A stretch of DNA of 64,000 bases, from assembly GCF_055900595.2 (NCBI RefSeq), contig NZ_CM148325.1; one strand, written 5' to 3'. This document shows positions 1 to 22,743 of this stretch, piece by piece (the first letter of the stretch is position 1; each line of letters begins with the position of its first letter). The notes under the pieces were generated by a model. It saw only the letters and a program-made list of their open reading frames with translations, was not told the DNA's origin and ran no database searches. The translations under genes and the position numbers were made by a program.

Positions 1-1
1 T

Positions 2-670: not shown

Positions 671-672
671 CC

Positions 673-1449: not shown

Positions 1450-1550
1450 CGGCTGACCCCGTCAGAAGGCGGCGTGCCGGGCGTTCCGGTTACGGTTTTC
1501 CGTTCCCCTTACACCCGGCACCCACCGCTTTTTTTCTGAAGGAGCGATTT

Positions 1551-4068: not shown

Positions 4069-4083
4069 CACGCGGAGAATGTT

Positions 4084-5318: not shown

Positions 5319-5665
5319 CCGCTGTTTACAGGGGGATGAACCCGCAGGGAACCGGCACGCTGAGCGACAGCGAACACCTGAAAAACAGCGTGCGGGATAT
5401 CCTGACCACACCGCCAGGCAGCCGGGTGATGCGCCGCGAATACGGCAGCCTGTTACCGGACCTCATCGACGAGCCCATGAACGACACCACGCGTTTACAG
5501 TGCATGAGCGCCACGGTGACTGCGCTGGCGCGCCATGAACCCCGTATAGCACTGCAGAACGTCGATGTGAACTGGCGGGCTGGCGGACGCGCCGTGGTGA
5601 CGTTATCCGGCATCATCACCGAAACCATGCAGAACATCACATTCAGTATCACCCTGAGGGAGTAA
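5315..5665 (+). CDS. Baseplate wedge protein, P2 gpW-like (gp25-like)
   Basis: ATG at 5315 overlapping the V-like stop; 116 aa (P2 gpW 115 aa). Confidence 0.7.
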   Translation: MTAVYRGMNPQGTGTLSDSEHLKNSVRDILTTPPGSRVMRREYGSLLPDLIDEPMNDTTRLQCMSATVTALARHEPRIALQNVDVNWRAGGRAVVTLSGIITETMQNITFSITLRE

Positions 5666-5668
5666 ATC

Positions 5669-6565: not shown

Positions 6566-7121
6566 CAGGAAAAAAACAGACAGCGCACAGCACAGTACAT
6601 CACTGCTTCCACCGTCCGCAGGGCCATTCATGCGCGCCACAGAGGCGACAGGAGTACGCATCAGTACCATACCGGTGGACGCCGACACCCTGTGGTCGCC
6701 GGACCGCTGCCCTGCTCACCTCCTGCCCTACCTTGCATGGGCATGTTCCGTTGACTGCTGGGACCGCAACTGGCCGGAAGAGACCAGGCGACAGGTGATT
6801 CGGGACGCATGGATGATACATCGCCACAAAGGGACCATCAGTGCACTCCGCCGCATCGTTGAACCACTGGGCTACCTCATCCGTGTATCAGAATGGTGGG
6901 AGTTTGACGGCTCGCCCGGGACCTTCACCATTGAGATTGGCACACTTGAAACCGGAGTAAGTGAAGAGCTGCATGAAGAAATGGAGCGTCTGATTGCCGA
7001 TGCGCGCCCCGTCAGCCGCCACCTCGTGGGGCTTAGTATCATCCAGGAAATACACGGTGCCATTTACGACGCTGCCGCAGGTTACGACGGCGACATCATC
7101 ACCATTTACCCGGAAGACTGA
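6558..7121 (+). CDS. Baseplate/tail protein, P2 gpI-like
   Basis: ATG at 6558 overlaps the J-like stop by 8 nt; 187 aa. Confidence 0.65.
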   Translation: MSDRKKTDSAQHSTSLLPPSAGPFMRATEATGVRISTIPVDADTLWSPDRCPAHLLPYLAWACSVDCWDRNWPEETRRQVIRDAWMIHRHKGTISALRRIVEPLGYLIRVSEWWEFDGSPGTFTIEIGTLETGVSEELHEEMERLIADARPVSRHLVGLSIIQEIHGAIYDAAAGYDGDIITIYPED

Positions 7122-7124
7122 ACC

Positions 7125-9359
7125 ATGAGCACGAGAAAATTCAGAACCCTTATCACCGACATCGGGCTGGCAAAGCTGGCCGCAACAACGGCGCCTGGCG
7201 GTAGACCTGTACGCCTTACGCACATGGCTGTAGGGGACGGCAATGGAGAGCTTCGTCAGCCGCAGAAAAACCAGACATCGCTTTACAATGAGGTTTGGCG
7301 CCAGTCTGTCAACCGCGTCTTCACCGACCCGGAGAACCCGAACCGCCTCATCGCCGAACTGGTCATTCCTCCTGAAACCGGCGGATTCTGGGTGCGTGAA
7401 ATTGGTGTGTTTGATGATACAGGTACAATGATTGCAGTAGGAAATACCGCTGAAAGTTACAAGCCCACCAGAGAGGAAGGTTCAGGGCGGGCGCAGATAT
7501 TCCGTGCAGTAATCACCGTCACCTCCGACGCCGTGGTGGAACTGGTCATGGACACAACAACAATTCTGCCGACCACGGACTACATTGATGAGAAAATGGC
7601 GGAACACGCACGTTCCCGTAACCACCCTGACGCGACACTGACAGAAAAAGGATTCACCCAACTGAGCAGCGCCACAAACAGCACCTCTGAAACACTGGCC
7701 GCCACACCGAAGGCCGTCAAGGCTGCATATGACCTTGCAGCCGGTAAAGCACCCGCCAGCCACACCCACCCGTGGAATCAGATAACTGGTGTGCCATCAG
7801 CCTCGCTGACGGCAAAAGGCACCGTACAGCTGAGCAGTGCCACAAACAGTGAGTCAGAGACTGAGGCGGCCACCCCCAAAGCGGTTAAAGCCTTACACGA
7901 TATGGTGACGAGCAAGTATACAGGACAGGATGCAACCACCGGACGCAAAGGCATCGTACAGCTGAGCAGCGCCACAAACAGCAATTCCGAAACACTGGCG
8001 GCCACACCGAAGGCAGTAAGTGATGCACTGAGCATGGCGTTCGTGAAGCCAACAACATCCCTGGGGGAAACAGACCTGAACACTCTGGGGCGTAAGGAAG
8101 ACGCGGGAGATTATTACCAGCAGAGTGACTCAGGTGCGAGAACAGACAGAAACTATCCTGTAGAGAAGGCAGGAGAGTTACGCATCCGTGTTGGTGCATG
8201 GGGATTCTGCCAGCATGAATACACGAGCTGGGATCCGCCACGAAAATTTATCAGGACAGTTACCGGAAACTTTAACGGTAACGGCCCATGGTCAGAGTGG
8301 GTGGAGGTGACAAACACAGATGCAACAACTGGACGCAAAGGCATCGTACAGCTGAGCAGCGATACAAACAGCAATTCCGAAACGCTGGCGGCCACACCAA
8401 GAGCCGTCAAGGCTGCATATGACCTTGCAGCCGGTAAAGCACCCGCCAGCCACACCCACCCGTGGAATCAGATAACAGGTGTGCCATCAGCCTCGCTGAC
8501 GGCAAAAGGCACCGTACAGCTGAGCAGTGCCACAAACAGTGAGTCAGAGACTGAGGCCGCCACCCCCAAAGCGGTTAAAGCCTTACACGATATGCTGACG
8601 AGCAAGTATACAGGACAGGATGCAACCACCGGACGCAAAGGCATCGTACAGCTAAGCAGCGCCACAAACAGCAATTCCGAAACGCTGGCGGCCACACCAA
8701 AAGCTGTTAAAGCTGCGTATGACCTTGCCAACAGCAAAGCCTCGGCAGCCCACACTCATCGCTGGGCTCAGATCACAGACGCCCCTGTTTTTTCGTCTGT
8801 TGCCCGCGTCATCATGGGTAAACAAAGCATAAAAGATATTCTTGATTACTTTGGTTTAGGAGAAGGCTCGACGCTGCCAGTTGGCGTACCCGTTCCGTGG
8901 CCTTCGTCAAGACCACCTGAGGGGTGGTTACAGTGCAACGGTGCCGCATTCACGCGTACAAAATACCCAAAACTGGCGGTGGCCTACCCTGACCTCAGGC
9001 TACCAGATTTGCGCGGGGAATTTATTCGTGGATGGGATGACCTGCGAATGATTGACAGGGGACGCTTATTGTTATCCACACAGGAAGCAACATATATTTG
9101 TACCGCCATACAGGCGTACCACGGCGTAGCGGGAGGTGCAGATATTCAGGCAGGGATTTCATTTGCATCACATGATAACGACATCATAAACATAACCCCT
9201 GATCAACCCAGAACCGGTAACGGCATCCTGTACGGCACAAAACCAGTTGACAGATGGGCAATAGCCAGAGCCGGTAAGCTGGTGAGTAATGAAAAAGACA
9301 GATGGATAGCGATCAGACCGCGCAATATCGCTTTTAATTATATTGTGAGGGCAGTTTAA
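7125..9359 (+). CDS. Tail fibre protein, P2 gpH-like, with internal repeat modules and a collar-like C-terminal domain
   Basis: 744 aa; conserved gpH-type N-terminus (MSTRKFRTLITDIGLAKLAATTAPGG...); repeated GIVQLSSATNS...ATPKAVKA motifs; C-terminus ends NIAFNYIVRAV. Confidence 0.75.
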   Translation: MSTRKFRTLITDIGLAKLAATTAPGGRPVRLTHMAVGDGNGELRQPQKNQTSLYNEVWRQSVNRVFTDPENPNRLIAELVIPPETGGFWVREIGVFDDTGTMIAVGNTAESYKPTREEGSGRAQIFRAVITVTSDAVVELVMDTTTILPTTDYIDEKMAEHARSRNHPDATLTEKGFTQLSSATNSTSETLAATPKAVKAAYDLAAGKAPASHTHPWNQITGVPSASLTAKGTVQLSSATNSESETEAATPKAVKALHDMVTSKYTGQDATTGRKGIVQLSSATNSNSETLAATPKAVSDALSMAFVKPTTSLGETDLNTLGRKEDAGDYYQQSDSGARTDRNYPVEKAGELRIRVGAWGFCQHEYTSWDPPRKFIRTVTGNFNGNGPWSEWVEVTNTDATTGRKGIVQLSSDTNSNSETLAATPRAVKAAYDLAAGKAPASHTHPWNQITGVPSASLTAKGTVQLSSATNSESETEAATPKAVKALHDMLTSKYTGQDATTGRKGIVQLSSATNSNSETLAATPKAVKAAYDLANSKASAAHTHRWAQITDAPVFSSVARVIMGKQSIKDILDYFGLGEGSTLPVGVPVPWPSSRPPEGWLQCNGAAFTRTKYPKLAVAYPDLRLPDLRGEFIRGWDDLRMIDRGRLLLSTQEATYICTAIQAYHGVAGGADIQAGISFASHDNDIINITPDQPRTGNGILYGTKPVDRWAIARAGKLVSNEKDRWIAIRPRNIAFNYIVRAV
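7705..8010. repeat. Direct repeat copy A inside the tail fibre gene (about 300 bp, near-identical to 8395-8700)
   Basis: Read by eye: the stretch gccgtcaaggctgcatatgaccttgcagccggtaaagcacccgccagccacacccacccgtggaatcagataac... recurs almost exactly. Confidence 0.6.
8395..8700. repeat. Direct repeat copy B inside the tail fibre gene
   Basis: Near-identical to 7705-8010; shorter partial copies of the GIVQLSSATNS module occur at about 7925 and 8630. Confidence 0.6.
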
Positions 9360-9970
9360 TGAGTAACACTGCAGTTCTGGATGAAAACGGTATCGCCACT
9401 TTCGCAGGCGATATCACTGTATATCACTATGATGAGGAAACCCGGGAATACACCTCATCCTCTGTGGAGTATCTCGCCCTGGGGGTGGGTACCCCGGCAC
9501 ATTCATGCGCCGATGCCCCGCCAGAGGCAATGCCGGGTTACGTGATTTGCCGGACGTCCACGCTGGACGGGTGGGAGTATGTCCCCGATCATCGTGGAGA
9601 GACGGTATACAGCACAGAGAACGGTAATCCGGTCCAGATTACCCAACCAGGTGACTACCCGGAAGGGACAACGACAAAACAGCCTGCCACACCATGGGAT
9701 ACCTGGAACGGTGAGGCGTGGGTAACCGATACAGAACGGCAGCAAGCCGAAGAGCTGGAGGTTGCCAGACAGCAACGCAAGGAACGGGTGGATCAGGCGA
9801 TGAAGTCCATCGACCTCATCAACCTTAAGTTGCGGGCAGGTCGCAGTCTGACACCAGAAGAAACGGCAAAACTGAATGCCGTGCTGGATTATATCGACGA
9901 GCTGAACGCACTGGATATCAGCACGGAGCCTGAAATAAGCTGGCCGGAAACACCACCAGAAATGGAATGA
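9359..9970 (+). CDS. Tail fibre assembly chaperone (gpG / Tfa-like)
   Basis: 203-aa ORF starting at the tail fibre stop (TAATG overlap); typical Tfa N-terminus MSNTAVLDENGIATFAGDITVYHYDEETREY. Confidence 0.7.
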   Translation: MSNTAVLDENGIATFAGDITVYHYDEETREYTSSSVEYLALGVGTPAHSCADAPPEAMPGYVICRTSTLDGWEYVPDHRGETVYSTENGNPVQITQPGDYPEGTTTKQPATPWDTWNGEAWVTDTERQQAEELEVARQQRKERVDQAMKSIDLINLKLRAGRSLTPEETAKLNAVLDYIDELNALDISTEPEISWPETPPEME

Positions 9971-10040
9971 GCGGGGAAAAGGAACGGGCATTCATAAATA
10001 ATTCATCATGCAGGTGCCGCAAGAATGCGGCACATTACCT

Positions 10041-10529
10041 TCACATCAGATCATTTACGCCGCTTACTGTGGTATTCCAGACCGAACTTAACTTCCCTTT
10101 CATTCCCGAAAGCATATCAGACACCGGCGACGAGGCCATACTCTCCCGCAAATCCTCATCACAGCGTTCCAGACTGACAGTGAACTCAATTTTTTTGGCC
10201 TTACCGTGGCGGTCAAGTTCGCTTCGCGTTGTGCGGACAGCCGTTATCACATACATGCCGTATATCTGCCCCACACCGTCAATCAGCGGCCATGGGCGAC
10301 CAGTGTAAGCCTGCGTCGTTAAAAGGCTGAGGGAAACCTCACCGCCGGTAATTTCGGGATAAAGCACACCGGACAACGTGATCTGGTCGTCACCCGCCCC
10401 GATATACTGCCAGCTGGCCGAACGATTGATGCGTTCATTTTTAACGTGGCGCCAGGTTTTATTATGTTGCAGTTGTTGATGAGGCAGCGTACGCAACTCA
10501 AAAACAAACATGCCGTAAATCATCATCAT
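10041..10529 (-). CDS. Tail protein, P2 gpU-like
   Basis: 162 aa, N-terminus MMMIYGMFVFELRTLPHQQLQHNKTWRH closely resembles P2 gpU (159 aa); on the opposite strand to H/G. Confidence 0.7.
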   Translation of the reverse strand: MMMIYGMFVFELRTLPHQQLQHNKTWRHVKNERINRSASWQYIGAGDDQITLSGVLYPEITGGEVSLSLLTTQAYTGRPWPLIDGVGQIYGMYVITAVRTTRSELDRHGKAKKIEFTVSLERCDEDLRESMASSPVSDMLSGMKGKLSSVWNTTVSGVNDLM

Positions 10530-10540
10530 GCGAGGTACTC

Positions 10541-13500
10541 CTAATCTCTGTCACGGAAACTACCGACTGTCTGGCGGATACGGCGTTCCATTTCCGCACG
10601 GACGGCATCACCCACCATTTTTGCCAGTTCGCGCGGGTTTTGCGTGTGAACATCATGCAGGTGAATATGCAGTTCGCCAGTTAATCCCCATGGTGCCGGC
10701 TCACTCTGGCGCGGTCGGGGCGATGCGGGGGATATGGGCTGGCGCACAGCCTCAACCACCGGACGGGATGTTGCCGCCATCACTGGTGTCATTAGCGGGG
10801 AGAACGTCGGCATGACATCGTGAGTCATAACCGGTTTGATCACCGGCGGAACCACTGGCGTAATATTACCGGACAGTACCGGACGGACGACCGGAGGAAT
10901 AACCGGCACATTATTCACGGACACCACCGGCTTCACGACCGGCGACACGTTCGCCGTGGTGGATATCAGCGGCGAAACACTGACAGGCGGTGGCGCTGGC
11001 AGCGGTGGCAACGAAGGCACACTGACCGACGGCACCTGCGGCAGTCTGACAGGTGGCTCACTGACACTACCCGGTAACAGGGAAGCTGCTCGGTTAAAGC
11101 GTTCCTCCTTCCACTCACCACGAACGGCCAGCGCTTCCGGCAGGTTTTTAAAGATAATATCGCCGGGACCAGCGCGTTTTTTCGCCTGTTTCGCCTCATC
11201 CAGCAGACCACCGGTGTTATCGACGATTTTGTTCAGGCGGCGCATAGTGCCGGTATTCTCCCCCGTCAGGGGTGGTTGCCCCCCTTTGGGTTTTTCGCCG
11301 TCTTTTTTATCCTCGTCCTTTTTCGGCGGATTAATGACGTTAACATCCGCCAGAAGCATGGCAGCTTTCTCGTTCAGCAACTCCTTCTGTTTTAGTTCTT
11401 CCGCCTTTTTCCGGGCGCGCTCAACCGCCGACGGAATCAGCCCGAGTTTTTCCAGCACCCGGGTTAATGAGTCAATCAGCAGCGTAACCGGACCGGTCAC
11501 CAGATTGCTGATAAACTCCCCGACCTTCTGCCCGAACGTACGCCCGGCTTCCGTGCACTTGTCCAGCTCATCCTTTGTTGTGCTTACCGGCGCGAACAAA
11601 TCCACGAACCACTGCCACACACGCCCGATTGTCTGCCCGACATACTCAAACAGCGGTCCCAGTGGTGCCACAGCCTCGCGCAGTGGCGTAAGCCCCTGCC
11701 ACAGGCCGGACAAGAACCCGCCCACGACAGCCTTCAGCTGGTCCCAGTGCCGCCAGATAAGCACTGCCGCACCGACCAGTGTCGCCACCACAAGGCCCAC
11801 CGGACTTAACAGAAAACCCAGCGCCCCGCCAAGTGCGCCCACCGCACCACTCACCATCCCCCACAGTGCGGGCAGACCTGACAGTCTGAGCGCCAGTATT
11901 CCGATACCGCGCCCCAGTGAAATCAGTGCGCCGCCAGGTGAAGTGAACGCAGCCAGCAGACCACCACGCAGCGCGCCAAGTCCCGCCTGCACACCACGAA
12001 GCCGCCCCGCAACTACGCCCAGCAGTGCAGCAAACCGTCCGGCACCGGAGGTGATACCGACAAACAGCACGCGCCAGCCACCGATACCGCCCAGCGGACC
12101 ACCGAGTACGCCGCGCAGCTGCGTCAGTAACGGCAGCGCACGACCGAGGCCGGATGTGCCGGTCAGCAGGGCAAACCCAAGACGCAGTTTTGCCAGCGGC
12201 CCCATCAACACACCAGTGGCAAGTGACAGCGCCCCCATGGCCGCAACCGCAGCCAGCAGTACACCACCGGCAATCAGCAGTTGTTTTGTCAGTTCAGGGT
12301 GCGCCTGAGCCAGCGCGGTGACTTTCGCAATAACCCGGGTGAACGACTGCGTGACAGAACGCAGCGGCCCGTCAACGAGGTCAGCGACACGGATACGCAG
12401 TCCTTCCCATGCGCTGTTCAGTGATTTCAGGTCACCGTCCAGGTTATCAGCCATAACACGGGCAGTGTGATTAAGTTCCCCGGTGGCCAGTTCAATCTCC
12501 TGCGTAAGACGGGGAAGATTATTTTCCCCCGCCGCAGTGACAAGATTCATCAGGGAAACATAGGACTCCTGCCCGGCAATAGCCCTGAAAAAGGAGACCT
12601 GCGCGGCATTACCGTATTTTCGGGTGGCCTGGTACAGCTCATTCAGGATATTTTCCATCCGGCGCATGTTCCCGTAAGCATCCTGCGTCTCCACGCCAAG
12701 CTCTTTCAGTGCCATTGCAGCGGCCTTCGGCGGATCAACCAGACGTGACAGACTGGCACGCAGCGCCGTACCTGCATCACTTCCACGGATCCCCACACTG
12801 CCAAGGACACCCGTCATGGCTGCCGCCTGTTCAAGGGACAGGCCAAGTGAAGCTGCAACCGGACCCGTGTACTTCATGGTTTCACCCAGCGAACGGAGAT
12901 CCGTATTGGTTCGTGTGAAGGTGGCGGCCAGCGTGTCACCCACGCGATCCATCTGGTCAGCGGACAGACCAAACTGTGTGAGGATATTCGAACTGATATC
13001 GGCAGTCTGTCCCAGGTCCATCCCTGCAGCCATTGCCAGATCAAGCACGCCGGGTAGCGCCGCCTGTATGGCCTGTGGTGTGAAGCCGGCCATGGCAAGG
13101 AACGCCTGACCGCTGGCAGCATCACCGGCGGTAAACTGCGTTTCAGAGCCCAGCTTAATGGCCTGTTCGCGCAGCGCCTTAAACTGCGGACTGTTTTTGT
13201 CAATACGGGTCAGCGCCTGGACGCGCGACATCTCCTTACCAAAACTGACCGCCGGTTGCAGGAAACGTCCGGCCGCATAGCCGCCTGCCGCCGCCGTACC
13301 AACCGCCGTAAGTCCGACCGTTTTAAGTTTTCCCGCCGTCTCCTGAGCACGGGAATATTGCTGGCGTGCCTGCGTGACACGTGCCAGCGCCTGCCGTTCG
13401 CGTTCCAGCTGGTCGTTGTATTGCTGTGTTCGCCGTATGGCCTGTTGAATGGTGTTGTCACTGCCGGAAAGCGCAATACCGTGGCGCCGCAGCTCACCAC

Positions 13501-13888
13501 CCAGTTCGCGCATTCGCTGAACTTCACGCGCACGGACCTCATTGAGACGCTCAAGTTTGAGGCTCAAATCGTTCATCAGCTTTTTCTGTTTGTCAGACAG
13601 CACGGTTCCGGCGCGCTGAATTTGCTGAAGTGCGCTTAACTGGCGTTGCGCCCTGACAATGCCGTTTCCGGCCTTGTTTGCAGCCTCGCGGGCGCGATCA
13701 AATGAACGGGCGTGGCGTTCCAGGTTTTTGATCGCACCCTGCGTTCTCTGTATGGAGTCGCCAAGCTGGCCCATCATGCGACGGGCGTTTTCGGTGGGAC
13801 GGGTCAGCCTGTCAACAGCGCTGAAGGCGACCCGTATATCAAGCGTTTTCATGCTCTGCGTTCCCGCTGCGAAGGGCCGCCCGCTCAC
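10541..13888 (-). CDS. Tail tape measure protein, P2 gpT-like
   Basis: 1115-aa ORF; coiled-coil N-terminal region, Gly/Ala-rich hydrophobic centre, Pro/Val-rich C-terminal part; track start is GTG at 13888, an in-frame ATG also lies at 13852. Confidence 0.8.
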   Translation of the reverse strand: MSGRPFAAGTQSMKTLDIRVAFSAVDRLTRPTENARRMMGQLGDSIQRTQGAIKNLERHARSFDRAREAANKAGNGIVRAQRQLSALQQIQRAGTVLSDKQKKLMNDLSLKLERLNEVRAREVQRMRELGGELRRHGIALSGSDNTIQQAIRRTQQYNDQLERERQALARVTQARQQYSRAQETAGKLKTVGLTAVGTAAAGGYAAGRFLQPAVSFGKEMSRVQALTRIDKNSPQFKALREQAIKLGSETQFTAGDAASGQAFLAMAGFTPQAIQAALPGVLDLAMAAGMDLGQTADISSNILTQFGLSADQMDRVGDTLAATFTRTNTDLRSLGETMKYTGPVAASLGLSLEQAAAMTGVLGSVGIRGSDAGTALRASLSRLVDPPKAAAMALKELGVETQDAYGNMRRMENILNELYQATRKYGNAAQVSFFRAIAGQESYVSLMNLVTAAGENNLPRLTQEIELATGELNHTARVMADNLDGDLKSLNSAWEGLRIRVADLVDGPLRSVTQSFTRVIAKVTALAQAHPELTKQLLIAGGVLLAAVAAMGALSLATGVLMGPLAKLRLGFALLTGTSGLGRALPLLTQLRGVLGGPLGGIGGWRVLFVGITSGAGRFAALLGVVAGRLRGVQAGLGALRGGLLAAFTSPGGALISLGRGIGILALRLSGLPALWGMVSGAVGALGGALGFLLSPVGLVVATLVGAAVLIWRHWDQLKAVVGGFLSGLWQGLTPLREAVAPLGPLFEYVGQTIGRVWQWFVDLFAPVSTTKDELDKCTEAGRTFGQKVGEFISNLVTGPVTLLIDSLTRVLEKLGLIPSAVERARKKAEELKQKELLNEKAAMLLADVNVINPPKKDEDKKDGEKPKGGQPPLTGENTGTMRRLNKIVDNTGGLLDEAKQAKKRAGPGDIIFKNLPEALAVRGEWKEERFNRAASLLPGSVSEPPVRLPQVPSVSVPSLPPLPAPPPVSVSPLISTTANVSPVVKPVVSVNNVPVIPPVVRPVLSGNITPVVPPVIKPVMTHDVMPTFSPLMTPVMAATSRPVVEAVRQPISPASPRPRQSEPAPWGLTGELHIHLHDVHTQNPRELAKMVGDAVRAEMERRIRQTVGSFRDRD

Positions 13889-14365
13889 GCCAGGCGACCA
13901 CCTCGCCGGGATCCATCAGGAAGATTTCAGCGGGAGACCAGTTGAAAATAACGGCGATATCCGCCACAAAGTCTTCAATGTGCTCAAAGGGCACGACGGT
14001 TATCAGCCTGCCGTCGCCGCCCCACTCTTCCCGCCAGAGTCCTGACCGGCCAAAAAATTAACCGCCACCCCGCACAGCTGAATAAAATCAGCGGACCCCA
14101 TGCGCTTAAGCAGAACCTCGTCCAGTCGCGGCGAAGTGACGCGCGGGAGTAACTCAAACATCGCGTCCGTTTTCATGTTCAGCACGTCAAGCAGTGACAG
14201 CCCGCGCAGTGAACCGGCCTGCTGTACAGCAGGCGTGATTTCCACATACGTGATTTTTTTGTTACCGAGCACAAGGGGCGTTTTCAGCGTCACGCCGCGC
14301 TCACTGGTCACGTCCGCCGCATCAGCACCGTCAGTAACAGGGGCAACAACCGGATTTTCTTTCAT
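13839..14365 (-). CDS. Putative E+E' fusion made by programmed -1 ribosomal frameshift
   Basis: TTTTTTG on the coding strand at 14051-14057; the -1 frame stays open for about 70 codons and stops at TGA 13839-13841, just inside the tape measure 5' end. Confidence 0.45.
14003..14365 (-). CDS. Tail assembly chaperone, P2 gpE-like (zero-frame product)
   Basis: 120-aa ORF between the tube gene and tape measure gene; contains the slippery heptamer near its 3' end. Confidence 0.6.
   Translation of the reverse strand: MKENPVVAPVTDGADAADVTSERGVTLKTPLVLGNKKITYVEITPAVQQAGSLRGLSLLDVLNMKTDAMFELLPRVTSPRLDEVLLKRMGSADFIQLCGVAVNFLAGQDSGGKSGAATAG
14051..14057 (-). other. Slippery heptamer T_TTT_TTG (candidate -1 frameshift site)
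   Basis: Plus strand reads caaaaaa at 14051-14057; reverse complement is TTTTTTG in the E reading frame (AVNFLAGQ). Confidence 0.45.
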
Positions 14366-14415
14366 GCATAAAACCTCAAATCAGGGGGCGACGCCGCGCG
14401 CCGCCGTGGGAAACA

Positions 14416-14934
14416 TTAACCACCAAGACCAATCGCCGAGCGCACGCGGTCCGGGAAGACGTTTTTGCCGTCCTTGCGTTCGATGTGGTTCAGTAAATCA
14501 ATCTCCAGCACCGGACGGTCGTTAATGCTGAGTTTGTAGTAGGTACTCCTGACCGCATAGGTGTGAGACGTGACCTCACCCTGTTTTGCCTCCCCCGTAT
14601 CAATTTCCGTCACGCGGCCGCGAAGCTCAATTTCATACAGGTCGCTCTGCTCTTCATCGTTGTAGTACTCACCGACAAAGCGCAGCAGCGTACCGTCGAT
14701 CGTGCCGCCGTACTTAAGGAACAGTTCGCGGGTCGGCCCGCCCATGGTGAAACTCGCATCCAGCGCGCCGTCATCCAGACCAAGGTCGATATTCACCGCG
14801 CCGGCCATACCACCACCGCGATAGGCTTCCGTTTTACGGGTCAGTTTGGGGGGGGTGAAGCCGGTCACCCTGCCAATCTGGTTCACCCCGTCAGTAAACA
14901 GCGTGAACACCCTGAGATTTTTTGGTACGGCCAT
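14416..14934 (-). CDS. Tail tube protein, P2 gpFII-like
   Basis: 172 aa, same length as P2 FII; directly downstream of the sheath gene. Confidence 0.75.
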   Translation of the reverse strand: MAVPKNLRVFTLFTDGVNQIGRVTGFTPPKLTRKTEAYRGGGMAGAVNIDLGLDDGALDASFTMGGPTRELFLKYGGTIDGTLLRFVGEYYNDEEQSDLYEIELRGRVTEIDTGEAKQGEVTSHTYAVRSTYYKLSINDRPVLEIDLLNHIERKDGKNVFPDRVRSAIGLGG

Positions 14935-16124
14935 TAAGCACCTCCAAGCGTCGCAAATGCAGGACCAAAGAATTCATCAGTAAACGTCTGGTAAAGTTCC
15001 ATATCCTCAAGCGGCGGAACGGGCGTGTACTTGTAGCGGATACGCACGCGTCCCTGACGAAGTTCCGTGGTGCTGTTATCCACCACGTCATACCAGCACT
15101 CCGCACCAATGAGACGTCCTGACGTAACCAGCGCATCCAGTTTTGCGCGAATTGCGCTTAACACGTCTTTCACATTAGCAGGGGTCAGCGGGGCATCAAT
15201 CGTTTCAAACTGCGCTTCCGCAATGGAATCAGCCAGCACCTGAGCGGTTCGCGTGTACACCTCAAAGAGATACGCCTTCGTTTCCGGCGTACGGTTGCCC
15301 CAGAAGCGGAAACCGTTACGGCAAATGATGGTAGTGATTTCCTTGTTGTTGAGATTGTTGGCATCGCTGTCTTCGGACTGAAGGGACCAGAACACCGGGC
15401 TGGAAATACCCAGCACATTTCTTACCGGCACGTTGGACAGCGATTTATGCCAGCCCTGTTCGTGGTCAATACGTGCACGTAAACCGCAGGCGTACGCCGC
15501 AGCCGGGAAGACCTCATTAGCGCCGGATTTCGGGTTATGGGCGATGAAGTCCGGCCAGACCAGCATAAGTTCGCGCTCGTTAAATCTGGCGCGGTAGCTG
15601 ATTGCATCGGCGGGCTTCTTGCAGTTGTGACAGCCCGCGTAGACAAATGCGCGAAGTTTTTCTGCAATTACACACAGGGATTTTGTGACAGCTTCAGTAT
15701 CCAGTCCGGGAGCTGCGATGATGCGCGGACGGTAACCGATGGCATCATCCTGTTCAGCTATCAGAAGTGCATACATGCCGGTATAGTTTCCGTCATCATC
15801 AGAACCACCGATAACGAGTTTGTCCTGGGTTTGTCCTGAATGCGTCTCTTCCTTAAATTCAGGAACGCGCACCACAATCACCTTCGTGCTCACCTGGTCG
15901 GCGACAGCCTTAAGCGATTTGTAAAGCGTCCCCTTTGTGCCGGCCTTACCCAGCACATCACTGACGCGGGTCAGCAGTGTGGGTTTGTTCAGCGGGAACA
16001 GAGTTTCATCCGCGTCATCTGCCGTAGCCACAATACCAATAACACTGGAATCCACATCATTAATGGCGGTGGCAAGGCCGGTACTTTCCCTTACGCGCGC
16101 ACCATGAAAGCGTGTTTCACTCAT
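14934..16124 (-). CDS. Contractile tail sheath protein, P2 gpFI-like
   Basis: Internal ATG at 16124 (MSETRFHGARV...) gives 396 aa, same length as P2 FI; conserved motifs such as RNGFRFWGNRT. Confidence 0.8.
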   Translation of the reverse strand: MSETRFHGARVRESTGLATAINDVDSSVIGIVATADDADETLFPLNKPTLLTRVSDVLGKAGTKGTLYKSLKAVADQVSTKVIVVRVPEFKEETHSGQTQDKLVIGGSDDDGNYTGMYALLIAEQDDAIGYRPRIIAAPGLDTEAVTKSLCVIAEKLRAFVYAGCHNCKKPADAISYRARFNERELMLVWPDFIAHNPKSGANEVFPAAAYACGLRARIDHEQGWHKSLSNVPVRNVLGISSPVFWSLQSEDSDANNLNNKEITTIICRNGFRFWGNRTPETKAYLFEVYTRTAQVLADSIAEAQFETIDAPLTPANVKDVLSAIRAKLDALVTSGRLIGAECWYDVVDNSTTELRQGRVRIRYKYTPVPPLEDMELYQTFTDEFFGPAFATLGGA

Positions 16125-16200
16125 ATGTTTCACCCTTGTCTGGCTGGTTGATTTTGCGTAATCATTACCCACACACGCGGTAATCTCACCCCTTTGATGT

Positions 16201-16218
16201 TGTCTCCTGACAGCGACA
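16201..16218. promoter_or_regulatory. TGT-N12-ACA dyad, candidate Ogr/Delta-type late activator site between divergent FI and D
   Basis: tgtctcctgacagcgaca lies inside a longer palindrome (ttgttgtc...gacaacaa); about 77 bp from the FI start and about 68 bp from the D start. Confidence 0.4.
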
Positions 16219-16285
16219 ACAAAACAGCCATTCAACGCCGCTGCGGTGCATGAAACCATTACAGAACGCACCAGGAGAGAACACC

Positions 16286-17377
16286 ATGAAAGAGCTGTCA
16301 GTTACCGTTCCGTCACCGGATATCGACATCACCATCAACAACAACACACTGGCAAACCTCACAGAGCGACTCATGACGCTGACCCTGACGGATAACCGGG
16401 CCTTTGAGGCAGACCGCGTCACCCTCACCCTTGACGATACGGACGGGCAGTTACAGTTGCCACCACGTGGCGCACGCCTGAGAGTGATGATTGGCTGGCG
16501 AGGAGAATCACTGGTTAACAAGGGCACCTACGTCGTTGATGAGGTTGCGTGGGAAGGACCTCCAGATAAACTGATCATCACCGCCAGCAGCGCAGATTTT
16601 CGGGAAGAGTTCAACGTGAGGCGGGAGGTATCCTGGCACGACGTGACCGTAAAACAGGTTGTGTCAGCCATCGCTCACCGCTACGGCCTGAAGACACAGA
16701 TAAGCGAAATCCTCATGGATATCGAAATTGACCACGCTGACCAGACCGAAGAGAGCGATATATCCTTCCTGACCCGCATGGCTGAAATGCTGGGTGCGAT
16801 TGCCACCGTAAAAAACGGCAGCCTGTTATTCATTCTGCCGGGTGGCGGAACCGGGCCGGACGGAAGAGCCCTGCCTTCGTTCGCCATTACCCGCAGCAGC
16901 GGCGACAGTCACCGCTTTCGCATTGCTGACCGTGATGCGTATACGGGGGTCCGGGCGCACTGGCTCGATCTGAAGTTCGGGCAAAAGAAAAAAGTGAACG
17001 TGAAGCGACGCAGGGAAGCCGGGAAACAGAAACAGGAGAAGAGCAGCAGCCGGGAGGGTGATTACATGGAAGGCGCGGAAGGGAACGTCTACGTTCTGCG
17101 CAGGACTTACCAGAATGAAGAAACCGCACGACGTGCAGCTGCGGCAAAGTGGCAGGAGTTACAGCGGGGAGCAGCGGCATTCTCCATCACTCTGGCACGG
17201 GGTCGTGCCGACCTGTATCCCGAAATGCACGGCAGGGTAACAGGTTTTAAAAGCGAGGTGGACAATCAGGACTGGATTATTGCCAGGGTGGAGCACATCA
17301 TAGATGAAAGCGGCTTCACCACACAACTGGAGCTGGAAGCGAAAATCCCCGAATGGATAGCAGATTCAGGCGGATAA
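16286..17377 (+). CDS. Tail protein D (late control gene D family), P2 gpD-like
   Basis: ATG at 16286 preceded by aggagag; 363 aa with gpD-type motifs (LTLTDNR.FEAD, FSITLARGRADLYPE). Confidence 0.7.
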   Translation: MKELSVTVPSPDIDITINNNTLANLTERLMTLTLTDNRAFEADRVTLTLDDTDGQLQLPPRGARLRVMIGWRGESLVNKGTYVVDEVAWEGPPDKLIITASSADFREEFNVRREVSWHDVTVKQVVSAIAHRYGLKTQISEILMDIEIDHADQTEESDISFLTRMAEMLGAIATVKNGSLLFILPGGGTGPDGRALPSFAITRSSGDSHRFRIADRDAYTGVRAHWLDLKFGQKKKVNVKRRREAGKQKQEKSSSREGDYMEGAEGNVYVLRRTYQNEETARRAAAAKWQELQRGAAAFSITLARGRADLYPEMHGRVTGFKSEVDNQDWIIARVEHIIDESGFTTQLELEAKIPEWIADSGG

Positions 17378-17420
17378 AATTAAAATGAGCCATCTCCACT
17401 CAGCCAGATAAGGAGAAGCC

Positions 17421-17672
17421 ATGTTCCGTTGTCCCCTATGCGGTGCATCCGCACGTATCCGCACCAGTCGCAATGAAAATGATTCAGGCACAGTTCGCCT
17501 GAAGTACTACCAGTGCAATAACCTCGAATGCGGGATCGGCTTTACCACACTGGAGGGTTTTAACAAATTCACATCAAAACGCGCCCCGTCGCCGCAGGGT
17601 ACAGAGCGGATACCGTGGGAAGATTTTCCGGGATCTCACAGGGGGAATACTCAGATTAATCTTGATATTTAA
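17421..17672 (+). CDS. ogr: Ogr/Delta-family zinc-finger late transcription activator
   Basis: 83 aa; N-terminus MFRCPLCGASARIRTSR...YYQCNNLEC carries the four-Cys Ogr signature; last gene of the P2-type late region. Confidence 0.7.
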   Translation: MFRCPLCGASARIRTSRNENDSGTVRLKYYQCNNLECGIGFTTLEGFNKFTSKRAPSPQGTERIPWEDFPGSHRGNTQINLDI

Positions 17673-17790
17673 GAACAATAATCAGGTTGAGAGGACATCA
17701 TAAGGCAAGTAGATTAACGGCAGATACTTTCCCGCAACCACGGGCAAGTATTTAATTATCCATGATGAAATATGACCTAAATTGTTTTTT

Positions 17791-17816
17791 GCCCGCCGGA
17801 AAGCGGGCATTTTTTT
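17791..17816 (+). terminator. Intrinsic terminator (GC hairpin plus T7), first of a recurring family in the array
   Basis: gcccgccggaaagcgggc then attttttt; T-run only on the plus-strand side. Confidence 0.55.
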
Positions 17817-18030
17817 ATTCTTTTGTGGTTATGGGGTCATCAGGAACCACGTGCAGATTATATTTTTGTTTTTTTGGCGTTCCTCCGGCAGCAACGAGTT
17901 CATCAATAAGACACTGACACGCCTGAACATCCCGGGCATGTCTTAGTTTCACCTTTATTGATTTAACCTTATCCTCACCGGAGGAGAAATGCAGTTCAAT
18001 CTCAATATCGTTTCTTCGGAACAATCTCAT
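17815..18030 (-). CDS. Hypothetical small protein (71 aa) encoded in the 450-bp repeat unit; only this copy is full length
   Basis: MRLFRRNDIEIELHFSSGEDKVKS...; copy at about 19.2 kb differs by two synonymous and one non-synonymous change in the first 7 codons and is truncated to about 35 codons; third copy degenerate. Confidence 0.35.
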   Translation of the reverse strand: MRLFRRNDIEIELHFSSGEDKVKSIKVKLRHARDVQACQCLIDELVAAGGTPKKQKYNLHVVPDDPITTKE

Positions 18031-18254
18031 ACGCCCCCTGAATATATCAGAAATACTAGTATCGAAAAATGAGAAAACAGTTAGACAGGAGAAACATATT
18101 AACACAAATCATTTATACCTATAGATGAAATTATAATTTCATTCATGAATATGATAGATAACTATATTGTGAACAAAATGAAAAATGGCTAAATTAAAAA
18201 TGGGCATGGAGGAATGCCCGGTTATCAATATAATGTGACGTAGATCATTGTTTT

Positions 18255-18281
18255 GCCCGCCGGAGAGCGGGCATTTTTTTT
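18255..18281 (+). terminator. Intrinsic terminator (repeat family)
   Basis: gcccgccggagagcgggc followed by a T8 run. Confidence 0.5.
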
Positions 18282-18465
18282 GCGCCTGCCATCGAGGCGC
18301 CTTCCCTGGCGCACACAAAGCAGCCCTGATTTTCCATGAAAACTTCAGGGTTGAGCTGCGGGCACAAAGTGAGTAGATTAGCTACGGGTACCTCCCCCTG
18401 ACAACAGGAAGGGTGTCCATTATCCATGATATACAAACGAAAAGTCTTGTTTTTTGCCCGCCGAA

Positions 18466-18491
18466 GCGCGGGCATTTTTTTATGCATCAGA
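18466..18491 (+). terminator. Intrinsic terminator (repeat family), immediately upstream of the hok-like locus
   Basis: gcccgccgaagcgcgggc followed by a T7 run. Confidence 0.5.
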
Positions 18492-18607
18492 CAAGATACA
18501 GCCCACCCCAACTGACACCTGAAATATTGCCGCAACAAAAAGAAACAGTTAAATTACGCGCGGGTGCCTTTCGGCTGATGGCCGGAGGGAAAACCTGAAG
18601 GCCGGAT

Positions 18608-18841
18608 GTGGAAAGGCCCCGGAAAACATTTCTGTTTAACCGAGGCCCTAACCGCATTACCTTGACAAGTGAAAGGTTAGCGCCTCTCCGGAAAAGGAGC
18701 AAGTGCTATGTCGCAAAAATCGCTTACGGCCATCACGTTCTGCGTGACGGCAATCCTCATCATCTGGATATTGCACGGTTCGCTGTGCGAAATACGGATG
18801 AGCTTCTGGGGAGCGGAGTTTGCGGCGTTCTTACAATGTAA
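18608..18841 (+). CDS. mok-like overlapping reading frame of the hok-like locus
   Basis: 77-codon frame starting at GTG 100 nt upstream of the hok-like ATG and covering it in another frame, as in hok/mok/sok modules. Confidence 0.4.
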   Translation: MERPRKTFLFNRGPNRITLTSERLAPLRKRSKCYVAKIAYGHHVLRDGNPHHLDIARFAVRNTDELLGSGVCGVLTM

Positions 18842-18848
18842 GAAGTAA
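18708..18848 (+). CDS. Hok-family type I toxin (46 aa), apparently intact
   Basis: ATG at 18708 preceded by aaggag with 8-nt spacing; MSQKSLTAITFCVTAILIIWILHGSLCEIRMSFWGAEFAAFLQCKK has a single TM helix, the Hok SLCEIR motif and the E(F/V)AAF motif; too short for the ORF track. Confidence 0.6.
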   Translation: MSQKSLTAITFCVTAILIIWILHGSLCEIRMSFWGAEFAAFLQCKK

Positions 18849-18947
18849 GGAAACCGCGACGGGGGAGCAATCCCCCGTCAATCGGTTGCCAGGGTAAGGT
18901 CGATAAGGCACCCTATCTCACAGACATGAACAACAAACCCGCAGCAT

Positions 18948-18979
18948 AAAAACTGCGGGTTTTCTTTTTGGTGTCCTCA
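18948..18979 (+). terminator. Intrinsic terminator downstream of the hok-like gene
   Basis: cccgcag cataaaaa ctgcggg followed by tttctttttgg. Confidence 0.5.
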
Positions 18980-20612
18980 CCGACTTGAAACAGTGATCAG
19001 ACTATAAGACAAAGCCCGCAATGTTGCGGGCTTACTCTACCTCTCGAAAATGTGGTCACTGCGTGGACATACGCTGATACAAATCCTTTATATCAATAAA
19101 TTAAATCTTTGTTTTTTTCATCAACAATGATTTAACCTTATCCTCACCGGAGGAGAAATGCAGTTCAATCTCAATATCGTTTCTGTGGAACAGCCTCATA
19201 AGACAACCTCCTGAATTCATCAGAAACACAGTCAACTGAAAACCAGAAAGCAGACAAACAGTGGACACACATTAATACAAATCATTTATACCTATAGATG
19301 AAATTGCAGTTTCATCTATAACATGACAGGTAACAATATTGTGAAAAAACTCAAAACTCGTTAGATTAAAGACGGACAGAGCAATGCTACTTTATCAATA
19401 ACATGTAACCTGTACTTCCTTATTTTGCCCGCCGAAGCACGGGCATTTTTTTTGCGCCTGCCATCGAGGCGCCTTCCCTGGCGCACACAAAGCAGCCCTG
19501 ATTTTCCATGAAAACTTCAGGGTTGAGCCAAAAGCACAAAGACAGTAGATTAACCACGGGTGCCTTCCACCTGACAACAGGAAGGGTGTCCAGTATCAAT
19601 GACAGACAACTCACATTGCTGTTTTGCCCGCCGGAAAGCGGGCATTTTTTTATTCTTTTGTGGTTATTGGGTCATCAGGAACAACATGCAGATTATGCTT
19701 TGATTTTTTTGGTGTTATTACAGCAGCAACGAGTTTATTAATAAGACACTGACATGCCTGAACATCCCTGACATATCATAATTTCACTTTATTTTTTTAG
19801 CTTGTCCTTTCTGGAGCAGAAATATCTCAACATCGTTTCTGTGGAACAACCTCATTTGCCCCTGAATGTATCATAAATATCAGCATCGGAAAACCAACAG
19901 CAATACAGAAGAAACATGTTAATGCAAATCACTTATACCTATAGATGAAATTACAGTTTTGTTCATAAATATGATAAGTAACTATATTGTGAATAAAATG
20001 AAAACTAGCTAAATTAAACGTGGGCATGGTGGAATGCCTCGTAATCAATAATACATGATCCGTACTTCCTTGTTTTGCCCGCCGGAAAGCGGGCATTTTT
20101 TTGGCGGTTACCATCGCCTCACCTTCCTGGTTCACATGAAGCAACCCTGATTTTCCATGAAAACTTCAGGGTTGAGACAAAAGCACAAAGACAGTAGATT
20201 AACCACGGGTACCTTCCACCTGACAACAGGAAGGCTGTCCAGTATCAATGACAGACAACTCACATTGCTGTTTTGCCCGCCGGAAAGCGGGCTTTTTTTG
20301 GCAGTTATCATAGCCGCACCTTCCTGGCACATATGAAGCAACCCTGATTTTCCATGAAAACTTCAGGGTTGAGACAAAAGCACAAAAACAGTAGATTAAC
20401 CACGGGTGCCTGCCACCTGACAACAGGAAGGGGTGTCCATTATCCATGATATACAAACGAAAAGTCTTGTCTTTTGCCCGCCAAAGCGCGGGCATTTTTT
20501 TATGCATCAGACAAGATACAGCCCACCCCAACTAACACCTGAAATATTGCCGCAACAAAAAGAAACGGGTGCCTTTCGGCTGATGGCCGGAGGGAAAACC
20601 TGAAGACCGGAT

Positions 20613-20795
20613 GTGGAAAGGCCCCGGAAAACATCTGTGTTTAACCGAGGCCTGACCCTTCCTACCGTGACAAGTGGAAGGTTAGCGCCTCTTTGTAAAA
20701 GGAGCAAGCGCTATACCGCAAAAAACGATTATTGTTGGCATTTTATGCCTGACAATAACCCTGGTCATCTGGATGGTCCACGATTCGTTATGTGA
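20613..20795 (+). CDS. mok-like frame of the second (decayed) hok-like locus
   Basis: 60-codon frame from GTG, homologous to 18608..18841. Confidence 0.3.
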   Translation: MERPRKTSVFNRGLTLPTVTSGRLAPLCKRSKRYTAKNDYCWHFMPDNNPGHLDGPRFVM

Positions 20796-20853
20796 ATTCA
20801 GCTTTGATATCTGAGGAGCGCGTTTTGCGGCGTTCTTGCAGTGTAAACCGTAA
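20713..20853 (+). pseudogene. Decayed hok-like toxin gene (start codon lost, in-frame nonsense codon)
   Basis: Alignment to copy 1 by eye: ATG is ATA at 20713-20715 and TGG is TGA at 20812-20814; remaining frame IPQKTIIVGILCLTITLVIWMVHDSLCEFSFDI* still shows the Hok core. Confidence 0.5.
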
Positions 20854-21003
20854 GAAACCGCAGCGGGGGAGAAATTCCCCGCTATCCGGTTGTTGGGGTG
20901 GGCCGATATGGCGCCCTTTCCCTGTAGAGACAAAACAAAAAACCAGATTTGCCCGCCATTGAGAGGGCTTTTTTGTCACCCTCACCAGTGAGGGCATCAT
21001 CAT

Positions 21004-21231
21004 TCAGAGGCGCGTAAGCCACCCGGCGTTAACATCCTGCCTGTCAACCCTGGCCGCAGAGTCTGAACGGCAGGTACCGGAAGGAGTACCAAAAACATCC
21101 CTGACAAGTTCCGCCACCTTCCCGATATCATCAGGTGTCACATTCCTCACCTCGGCCGTGATCCGTGGCGTACCATCATCGTTAACAAGAGTGGCTTTAA
21201 AGCTGGTGCGAAGGGAAAACAACATCAACAT
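21004..21231 (-). CDS. Hypothetical small protein (75 aa) between the repeat array and serS
   Basis: ORF only; not recognised; absent from my recollection of the K-12 serS-dmsA spacer. Confidence 0.25.
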   Translation of the reverse strand: MLMLFSLRTSFKATLVNDDGTPRITAEVRNVTPDDIGKVAELVRDVFGTPSGTCRSDSAARVDRQDVNAGWLTRL

Positions 21232-21386
21232 CCCCTCCCTTTGGTTCGTTGCACTGACGGCACGACACCATCAGGAAAAAGAAAAGCCCACAACGTCAGT
21301 ATTGTGGACTTTTTTCTTCAAAGATGGACATTATCTGGACACATGAAAATAAAATCCATTTATTTTCATATAGTTAAGTACCATGC

Positions 21387-21410
21387 AAAAGCGCCCGCAG
21401 GCGCTTTTTA
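21387..21410 (-). terminator. serS terminator (bidirectional-looking hairpin)
   Basis: aaaagcgcc cgca ggcgctttt immediately 3' of the serS stop. Confidence 0.55.
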
Positions 21411-21429
21411 GATTCAGAAAAATTGGGTA

Positions 21430-22743
<1,314 letters not shown>

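What the first reader, a model, noticed from the sequence alone, without database searches (positions are those of the whole stretch)
16125..16285. A single symmetric TGT-N12-ACA element between divergently oriented FI and D
P2 late promoters are activated by Ogr binding a TGT-N12-ACA dyad centred near -55. The only such element in the 160-bp FI/D spacer (16201-16218, inside the longer palindrome ttgttgtc...gacaacaa) is centred about 85 bp from the FI start codon and about 76 bp from the D start codon. If the spacing holds, one activator site could serve both the leftward FI-FII-E-T-U operon and the rightward D-ogr unit. That would restore co-regulation of D with the tail operon despite the inverted block.
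Basis: inference. Interest (0 to 1): 0.55.

Follow-up and report, generated by a model that had tools for sequence, protein, structure and literature searches.

The report
Shared two-way phage late promoter
The symmetric DNA element between the tail-sheath gene and gene D of this P2-like prophage is very probably one binding site for the phage's late-gene activator that switches on both outward-facing genes, a design P2 already uses once, so it is a new example, not a new principle.

Summary
TGT-N12-ACA lies at 16201-16218, the only copy in the 161-bp FI/D spacer (16125-16285). Its centre is 85.5 bp from the FI start codon and 76.5 bp from the D start codon. The longer palindrome has 7-bp arms, not 8.

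The bare pattern is not enriched in the window: 9 matches against about 16 expected. Significance comes from comparison.
- The divergent FI/D layout is the normal arrangement of a whole clade of viable P2-like phages (P88, PhiSM; Xuanwuvirus and Gemsvirus).
- Across about 125 distinct spacers, about 48% identical between lineages, the invariant bases are almost only four elements. These are the dyad T[G/C]T-N12-ACAAC, a -10-like hexamer 43.5 bp to the FI side, a TGn extended -10-like hexamer 43.5-44.5 bp to the D side, and a -35-like GTGA for FI.
- All four mapped P2 late promoters have a -10-like hexamer at this distance. P2's divergent PP/PO pair is annotated as sharing one activator site centred 55.5 bp from both start sites.
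- An ogr homologue follows D.

It is a new member of a known kind. This copy sits in a defective prophage.

The parts
14934..16124 (-). FI (tail sheath) gene, the first gene of the leftward FI-FII-E-T-U operon
   Evidence: ORF list; RefSeq annotation of the identical GF4 locus; PHROG phrog_23 tail sheath, E 2e-116.
16131..16137 (-). FI ribosome-binding site, AAGGGTG when read on the minus strand
   Evidence: Sequence. The CC at 16133-16134 is invariant in 8 lineages.
16154..16154 (-). Predicted FI transcription start (+/-1), 55.5 bp from the dyad centre
   Evidence: Inferred from the -10 position and from the 7-9 nt distance between hexamer and start site in the P2 record. Not measured.
16161..16166 (-). 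-10-like hexamer AATGAT of the FI late promoter (PF homologue), starting 43.5 bp from the dyad centre
   Evidence: Positions 16161, 16162, 16164 and 16165 are invariant. A hexamer RAT[G/T/C]AT lies at exactly 43.5 bp in all 54 and 77 of 79 related spacers. The P2 PO, PP and PV hexamers are at the same offset.
16184..16189 (-). -35-like GTGAGA, 17 bp upstream of the FI -10
   Evidence: Sequence. The CA at 16187-16188 is invariant, and GTGA is kept in most lineages.
16198..16221 (.). Activator (Ogr-type) binding dyad TGTTGTC-N10-GACAACA. The core TGT-N12-ACA is at 16201-16218 and the centre is 16209.5
   Evidence: T[G/C]T-N12-ACAAC is conserved, with the spacing fixed and the inner 12 nt free, in all related spacers but one, L118, which has CCT. 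The same extended half-sites, TGTTGT/ACAACA, occur in P2 PO, PP and PV and in P88 PP/PO.
16251..16259 (+). Extended -10-like element TG-a-AACCAT of the proposed D promoter. The hexamer 16254-16259 starts 44.5 bp from the dyad centre
   Evidence: TG (16251-16252), A16255 and T16259 are the only invariant bases between the dyad and the D leader. TGn+NANNNT lies at 43.5-44.5 bp in 53 of 54 and 77 of 79 related spacers. It is not a conserved start codon, because it is out of frame or followed by a stop in L017 and L016.
16266..16266 (+). Predicted D transcription start (+/-1), about 56.5 bp from the dyad centre, giving a leader of about 20 nt
   Evidence: Inferred from the -10 position. Not measured.
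16274..16280 (+). D ribosome-binding site AGGAGAG
   Evidence: Sequence. The RefSeq start for D is at the equivalent of 16286.
16286..17377 (+). Gene D (tail/baseplate hub protein, 'late control D')
   Evidence: PHROG phrog_52 tail protein, E 7e-148.
17381..17386 (+). Probable -10 (TAAAAT) of ogr's own promoter, in the 43-bp D-ogr spacer
   Evidence: The sequence compared with the annotated P2 ogr -10, cTAAAAT. This is an inference.
17421..17672 (+). ogr homologue (Ogr/Delta-like zinc-finger late activator)
   Evidence: RefSeq name; phrog_603, E 8e-14; 42% identity to P2 Ogr, with the four cysteines aligned.

Best explanation
The dyad is the binding site of the prophage's own Ogr-type late activator, and it sits midway between two back-to-back late promoters.

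- Leftward promoter: this is the homologue of P2 PF. It has -10 AATGAT at 16166-16161, -35-like GTGAGA and a predicted start near 16154. It drives FI-FII-E-T-U.
- Rightward promoter: this has an extended -10, TGa-AACCAT, at 16251-16259 and a predicted start near 16266. It drives D and, by read-through, ogr.
- Consequence: because the site is symmetric, one bound activator can serve a polymerase on either side. P2's PP and PO are annotated as doing exactly this.
- Origin (inferred): in the ancestor of the P88-like phages the FI-U block was inverted. The inversion carried PF next to D, and D then acquired a -10 element at the mirror position.

Shown here: the sequence elements, their geometry, their conservation, and the presence of the activator gene. 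Inferred: the start sites, Ogr binding, and Ogr dependence in both directions.
For: 1. The dyad is present and unique in the spacer.
2. P2's record gives one activator site for the divergent PP and PO, with start sites at 3016 and 3127. I place the site's TGT-N12-CCA core at 3071.5, 55.5 bp from each start. The PF centre is 17569.5, with starts at 17626-17628.
3. When anchored on the dyad centre, PF, PO, PP and PV of P2 each have a NANNNT hexamer starting 43.5-44.5 bp out. Both sides of the window site, and both sides of the P88 P/O and FI/D sites, do too. The untranscribed sides of P2 PF and PV do not.
4. All 80 and 79 loci recovered with two D proteins, plus eight deposited phage genomes, have FI and D divergent.
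5. In 8 lineage representatives with 48% mean spacer identity, 18 of the 21 invariant columns fall in the dyad, the two -10 elements and the FI -35-like element.
6. The distance from the FI -10 to the dyad has no indel in any lineage. The distance from the dyad to the D -10 is 40-41 bp. Both leaders vary by several bases.
7. The full architecture is found in 53 of 54 and 77 of 79 spacers.
8. The D-side and FI-side hexamers belong to the same unusual class, R-A-N-N-N-T, never with T at the first position. Three of the four P2 late hexamers are like this, which fits activator-dependent promoters.
9. An ogr homologue is encoded next to D.
10. P88 and PhiSM are active phages, so D, a tail gene, must be expressed although it is cut off from the FI operon (PMC6456863).
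11. Ogr binds inverted repeats centred near -55 and needs the RNA polymerase alpha subunit (PMC3152322). TGT-N12-ACA is the stated consensus, and PP'/PO' of phage Smp131 are listed as one dyad read on both strands (PMC3931495).
Against: - No transcript start, footprint or reporter data exist for this spacer or for any P88-like phage; no paper on their transcription was found.
- The D-side hexamer AACCAT matches TATAAT at only 3 of 6 positions, and a simple sigma-70 scan finds nothing in the spacer.
- A TGn extended -10 can work without an activator, so the D promoter could be Ogr-independent.
- In the window and in L085 the D-side hexamer is 1 bp further out (44.5). In one locus, L168, it is 3-4 bp closer.
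- In the P88 type one half-site is TCT rather than TGT.
- The bare motif is not enriched in the window.
- This prophage is defective, so the element may no longer matter to its host.
Confidence: 0.7

Rival explanations
1. The dyad serves only the FI promoter, as the ordinary PF that was carried along by the inversion. D (and ogr) would then be transcribed from an activator-independent extended -10 promoter that happens to lie in the same spacer.
For: TGn extended -10 promoters need neither a -35 element nor an activator; this is established knowledge of sigma-70 promoters. In the FI direction the site resembles P2 PF by eye. ogr appears to keep its own -10, so the D-ogr unit need not depend on the dyad.
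Against: - The D-side element keeps a fixed distance of 43.5-44.5 bp to the dyad centre across many lineages, while both leaders accumulate indels. An independent promoter would not be constrained in this way.
- Its hexamers are poor and always lack T at the first position, as three of the four mapped P2 late hexamers do.
- The P/O spacer of P88 has the same two-sided geometry.
Confidence: 0.2
2. The palindrome is an operator for a different protein (repressor, Cox, a host factor), or it forms a hairpin or terminator, and its resemblance to an Ogr site is coincidental.
For: The 41-nt stretch folds at -9 kcal/mol, z -2.3. A terminator-like pattern was flagged at 16242-16223 on the minus strand.
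Against: - In the P88-type lineages the arms are not complementary (TCT against ACA) and show no compensating change. The 12 inner bases vary freely while their number stays fixed, which is the signature of a protein site with two contact triplets, not of a stem.
- The element lies upstream of both predicted starts, and no gene reads into it.
- The conserved half-site TGTTGT/ACAACA is the one found in the annotated P2 activator sites.
- No Rfam family matches.
Confidence: 0.05
3. It is a chance match with no function.
For: TGT-N12-ACA is found 9 times in the window, fewer than in shuffles. Two other matches (19587, 20236) are merely copies of a repeat.
Against: Triplets, spacing and position are conserved in about 125 distinct spacers against a diverged background.
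Confidence: 0.02

Closest known systems
Bacteriophage P2 PP/PO divergent late promoters with a single Ogr site
   Same: - Two back-to-back late transcription units lie in a short spacer: 173 bp between start codons in P2, 161 bp here and 154 bp in P88 P/O.
- One dyad sits midway.
- NANNNT hexamers start 43.5 bp from the centre on both sides, and the start sites are 55.5 bp from the centre in P2.
- The half-site sequence is the same, TGTTGT/ACAACA.
   Different: - The genes differ: portal and terminase against scaffold and capsid in P2; tail sheath operon against D-ogr here.
- The P2 site is imperfect (TGT-N12-CCA), whereas the window site is a perfect 7-bp-arm palindrome.
- The P2 start sites are mapped; those here are only predicted.
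Bacteriophage P2 PF late promoter (FI-FII-E-T-U-D operon)
   Same: - It lies upstream of the same gene, FI.
- The site sequences resemble each other by eye (GGTTGTGCTGTC in P2, TTGTTGTCGCTGTC here).
- The centre-to-ATG distance is 82.5 bp in P2 and 85.5 bp here.
   Different: - In P2 the promoter is unidirectional. D is the last gene of the same operon, and ogr is read through from it.
- Here D and ogr are on the other side of the site and on the other strand.
- The untranscribed side of P2 PF has no -10-like hexamer at the mirror position.
Ogr/Delta/B/Pag family activators of P2, P4, 186, PSP3 and phiR73
   Same: A small zinc-finger activator gene sits next to D. It is 42% identical to P2 Ogr and conserves the four cysteines.
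   Different: The protein is 83 aa rather than 72 aa and has 24 rather than 22 residues between the cysteine pairs. Its DNA specificity has not been tested.

Membership tests
P2-family Ogr-dependent late promoter | Inverted repeat TGT-N12-ACA upstream of a late operon | tested here: met
   A perfect match lies at 16201-16218, extended to TGTTGT-N12-ACAACA. The consensus is as stated in PMC3931495.
P2-family Ogr-dependent late promoter | Dyad centred about 55 bp upstream of the transcription start | not testable with these tools
   No start-site data exist. The predicted starts, 16154 (-) and 16266 (+), are derived from hexamers at 43.5 and 44.5 bp and give 55.5 and 56.5 bp, by analogy with the P2 record.
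P2-family Ogr-dependent late promoter | Weak -10-like hexamer (NANNNT) starting 43.5-44.5 bp from the dyad centre, as in all four mapped P2 late promoters | tested here: met
   AATGAT lies at 43.5 bp (FI side) and AACCAT at 44.5 bp (D side). P2 has GAAAAT, GAAACT, TAGCCT and CAATCT at these offsets. The hexamers are conserved in relatives.
P2-family Ogr-dependent late promoter | Cognate Ogr/Delta-type zinc-finger activator encoded by the element | tested here: met
   The gene at 17421-17672 is annotated as Ogr/Delta-like, matches phrog_603 and is 42% identical to P2 Ogr.
P2-family Ogr-dependent late promoter | Transcription depends on the activator and on the RNA polymerase alpha C-terminal domain | not testable with these tools
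   This needs reporter or in vitro transcription assays, including an rpoA109-type host.
Bidirectional late promoter pair sharing one activator site (P2 PP/PO type) | Divergent late genes with a single dyad midway and -10 elements equidistant on both sides | tested here: met
   There is one dyad in the 161-bp spacer, with hexamers at 43.5 and 44.5 bp. The layout is the same in P2 PP/PO and in P88 P/O.
Bidirectional late promoter pair sharing one activator site (P2 PP/PO type) | Both flanking promoter elements and their spacing are under selection | tested here: met
   18 of 21 invariant columns fall in the predicted elements. There are no indels on the FI side and at most 1 bp on the D side, with one exception (L168) among about 125 distinct spacers.
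Bidirectional late promoter pair sharing one activator site (P2 PP/PO type) | Both directions shown to be activated from the one site | not testable with these tools
   This needs dyad mutants assayed in both orientations.

The most novel reading that the evidence does not exclude
In the P88-like (Xuanwuvirus/Gemsvirus) clade, inversion of the FI-U block placed PF next to the orphaned gene D. Because the Ogr site is symmetric, a new promoter for D evolved simply by acquiring an extended -10 at the mirror distance.

The whole late programme of these phages would then run from only two activator sites, both bidirectional: P/O and FI/D. P88 has no separate PV, because S overlaps V. Since ogr lies just downstream of D, the new promoter would also close a positive feedback loop on the activator.
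Probability: 0.55. Interest if true: 0.45.

Novelty: new member of a known kind. Interest (0 to 1): 0.35.

Why it matters
- It explains how an essential tail gene stays co-regulated with the tail operon after a large inversion separated the two.
- It is a clean natural example of a symmetric activator site being reused to create a second promoter.
- It gives precise, testable predictions (start sites near 16154 and 16266, and dependence on the dyad in both directions) for a widespread but transcriptionally unstudied group of E. coli, Citrobacter and related prophages.
- It also corrects annotation: several deposited genomes place spurious small ORFs, or an over-long D gene, across this promoter region.
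- It does not change the understanding of Ogr-type activation, because P2's PP/PO pair already works this way.

Tried and rejected
- Motif enrichment: neither TGT-N12-ACA nor the extended form is enriched in the window, so I dropped motif counting as evidence.
The terminase gene abuts a truncated baseplate gene, so the P/O region and genes O to V are deleted. I used P88 instead.
- Simple sigma-70 scan of the spacer: no hit, as expected for activator-dependent promoters.
- Terminator or hairpin reading: rejected.
- Conserved (A/G)TG at 16250-16252 as an alternative D start codon: rejected. It is out of frame or immediately followed by a stop in L017 and L016.
- Read-through into D from upstream: rejected by inference. 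It would need about 6 kb of antisense transcription through the FI-U block.
- Rfam scan of 9000-22000: nothing found.
- Literature: the primary P2 and P4 promoter papers (PMC177091, PMC207153, PMC209047) are not held. The P88 paper does not mention promoters or the inversion. There is no transcription study of Xuanwuvirus.
- Terminator at the U/G convergence: none detected by the simple scan.

Full report
**What is there**

The window is E. coli chromosome, 100% identical to strain GF4 over the region tested. It carries a P2-like prophage. The gene order on the + strand is:
- portal(-), large terminase(-)
- a truncated baseplate gene, then J, I, H, G (+)
- U, T, E, FII, FI (-)
- D (+), ogr (+), and a hok-type toxin gene

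PHROG profiles confirm tail sheath, tail tube, U, D and an Ogr-type regulator.

FI starts at 16124 on the minus strand. D starts at 16286 behind the RBS AGGAGAG.

TGT-N12-ACA occurs once in the spacer, at 16201-16218. It lies inside the 7-bp-arm palindrome TGTTGTC/GACAACA at 16198-16221. The centre, 16209.5, is 85.5 bp from the FI start codon and 76.5 bp from the D start codon.

**Is it more than chance?**

Not on motif counts. The window has 9 matches against 15.8 +/- 3.4 in shuffles, and the extended motif gives 6 against 3.6. Two of the other matches (19587, 20236) are copies of a repeat. Any significance has to come from position and comparison.

**The layout is a clade character, not decay**

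The deposited phages P88, P884B11, 520873, 503458, 500465-2, PhiR44_2, Chuche and Citrobacter Shae_phiSM all have FI(-) next to D(+). Where the genome is annotated, D is followed by an ogr-like gene. These phages belong to Xuanwuvirus and Gemsvirus.

All 80 viral contigs recovered with the window's D protein have the same divergent pair. So do all 79 contigs with an informative upstream region that were recovered with a 72%-identical D protein.

P88 and PhiSM are active temperate phages (PMC6456863). D must therefore be expressed although it is separated from the FI operon. In P2 itself, D is the last gene of the FI operon and is followed by ogr.

**Comparative footprint**

I aligned one representative of each of about 7 lineages. 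Mean pairwise identity in the spacer is 48%, and only 21 of 161 columns are invariant. Eighteen of those fall in four blocks:
- A.AT.AT at 16161-16165. Read leftward, this is a -10-like hexamer RAT[G/T/C]AT.
- CA at 16187-16188, part of a -35-like GTGA lying 17 bp upstream of that hexamer.
- G.T.T at 16199-16203 and ACAAC at 16216-16220, the two half-sites. The 12 bases between them vary freely but are always 12.
- TG at 16251-16252, A16255 and T16259. This is TGn followed by NANNNT, that is, the -15/-14, -11 and -7 positions of an extended -10 read rightward.

The FI-side hexamer starts exactly 43.5 bp from the dyad centre in every spacer examined. The D-side hexamer starts at 43.5 bp, or at 44.5 bp in the window lineage and the L085 group.

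The 40 bp between the FI -10 and the dyad never carries an indel. The segment from the dyad to the D -10 is 40 or 41 bp. The two leaders vary more, at 33-39 and 25-30 bp.

Exceptions are few:
- 503458 is a genome full of frameshifts.
- L118 has a CCT half-site but is otherwise conforming.
- L168 has its D-side hexamer 3-4 bp closer.

The conserved (A/G)TG on the D side is not a start codon. It is out of frame in L017 and followed at once by a stop in L016.

**Comparison with mapped promoters**

The P2 reference record annotates the activator sites and start sites:
- PF site 17555-17583, starts at 17626-17628.
- PV site 10239-10266, start at 10308.
- One site, 3057-3087, labelled 'pO, pP promoters', with divergent starts at 3016 and 3127.

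The core of that shared site is TGT-N12-CCA centred at 3071.5, which is 55.5 bp from both starts.

I anchored every promoter on its dyad centre. All four P2 promoters have a NANNNT hexamer starting 43.5-44.5 bp out: GAAAAT, GAAACT, TAGCCT and CAATCT. Each ends 7-9 nt before the mapped start.

The window has AATGAT at 43.5 bp on the FI side and AACCAT at 44.5 bp on the D side. P88 has GATGAT and GACCAT, both at 43.5 bp.

The P88 P/O spacer has the same construction. It carries GTTCT-N12-ACAACAAAAGC, with TAATCT at 43.5 bp on the P side and TGc-CATCAT at 44.5 bp on the O side.

The untranscribed sides of P2's unidirectional PF and PV lack such a hexamer. That control has only n = 2.

Read in the FI direction, the window site TTGTTGTCGCTGTC resembles (by eye, not scored) P2 PF GGTTGTGCTGTC.

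**The activator**

The gene at 17421-17672 encodes an 83-aa protein that is 42% identical to P2 Ogr, with the four zinc-binding cysteines aligned. It appears to keep its own -10 (TAAAAT, 17381-17386), like P2 ogr.

Ogr binds inverted repeats centred near -55 and acts through the polymerase alpha subunit (PMC3152322). TGT-N12-ACA is the quoted consensus, and in phage Smp131 the PP' and PO' sites are the same 18 bp read on the two strands (PMC3931495).

**Most likely mechanism (confidence 0.7)**

One Ogr-type activator site serves two back-to-back late promoters:
- the PF homologue, reading leftward into FI-FII-E-T-U;
- a promoter for D, and by read-through for ogr, reading rightward.

The predicted starts are near 16154 and 16266.

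Shown here are the elements, their mirror geometry, their conservation, the activator gene and the P2 precedent. Inferred are the start sites, binding, and dependence on Ogr in both directions.

The main rival (0.2) is that the dyad serves FI only, and that the conserved TGn extended -10 is an activator-independent promoter for D. The fixed distance to the dyad and the poor hexamers, which belong to the late-promoter class, argue against this, but only experiment can exclude it. Readings as a hairpin or terminator, another protein's operator, or pure chance are poorly supported.

**Novelty and value**

The principle is already in the P2 record for PP/PO, so this is a new member of a known kind. 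I found no study of transcription in the P88-like phages.

The appealing part is evolutionary. An inversion stranded D, and the symmetry of the activator site offered a ready-made solution. P88 has no separate PV promoter, because S overlaps V. Its whole late programme may therefore run from two bidirectional sites.

In this particular window the prophage is a remnant. The region from the P/O promoters through V is deleted and the replication gene is a pseudogene. The local biological consequence is therefore probably small.

Interest is 0.35.

Noticed in passing
window 1-9970 (L001 1-15971): The prophage is a remnant. The large terminase gene (-) is followed within about 30 bp by a baseplate gene that lacks its N-terminus, so the P/O promoter region and the genes for scaffold, capsid, small terminase, lysis, R, S and V are all missing. 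The replication endonuclease is annotated as a pseudogene.
   Followed up: partly
window 17787-20880: Downstream of ogr there are several diverged direct repeats (66-98% identical, units about 650-2000 bp apart) of a hok/gef-type toxin module. One hok gene is annotated at about 18708-18848, and a second copy, 81% identical, lies at 20566-20796. The two identical TGT-N12-ACA matches at 19587 and 20236 lie in these repeats. Rfam found no Sok-type RNA at gathering threshold.
   Followed up: partly
L091 (phage P88) 19576-20789 and 14152-14305: In P88 the S gene overlaps V, so there is no separate PV promoter region. The only intergenic T[G/C]T-N12-ACA sites next to late genes are in the P/O and FI/D spacers, both between divergent genes.
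   Followed up: partly
L002 7673-7804; L008 1701-2942; L009 1706-1819; L010 3172-3312; L006: There are annotation problems in deposited relatives. Small 'hypothetical' ORFs are called inside the FI/D promoter spacer, on different strands in different records. D of phage 500465-2 is annotated from a start 26 bp after FI, so the gene covers the whole promoter. In Shae_phiSM the sheath is labelled 'late control gene D protein' and D is labelled 'ogr'.
   Followed up: no
window 10541-13888: The tape-measure reading frame is open for 1115 aa in the window. RefSeq nevertheless annotates the same DNA in strain GF4 as two pseudogene fragments. P88's homologue is 935 aa.
   Followed up: no
window 17378-17420: The D-ogr spacer is only 43 bp, against 81 bp in P2, yet it keeps a TAAAAT -10 resembling the annotated P2 ogr promoter. 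No terminator-like structure was detected between D and ogr, or directly after ogr, on the + strand.
   Followed up: partly
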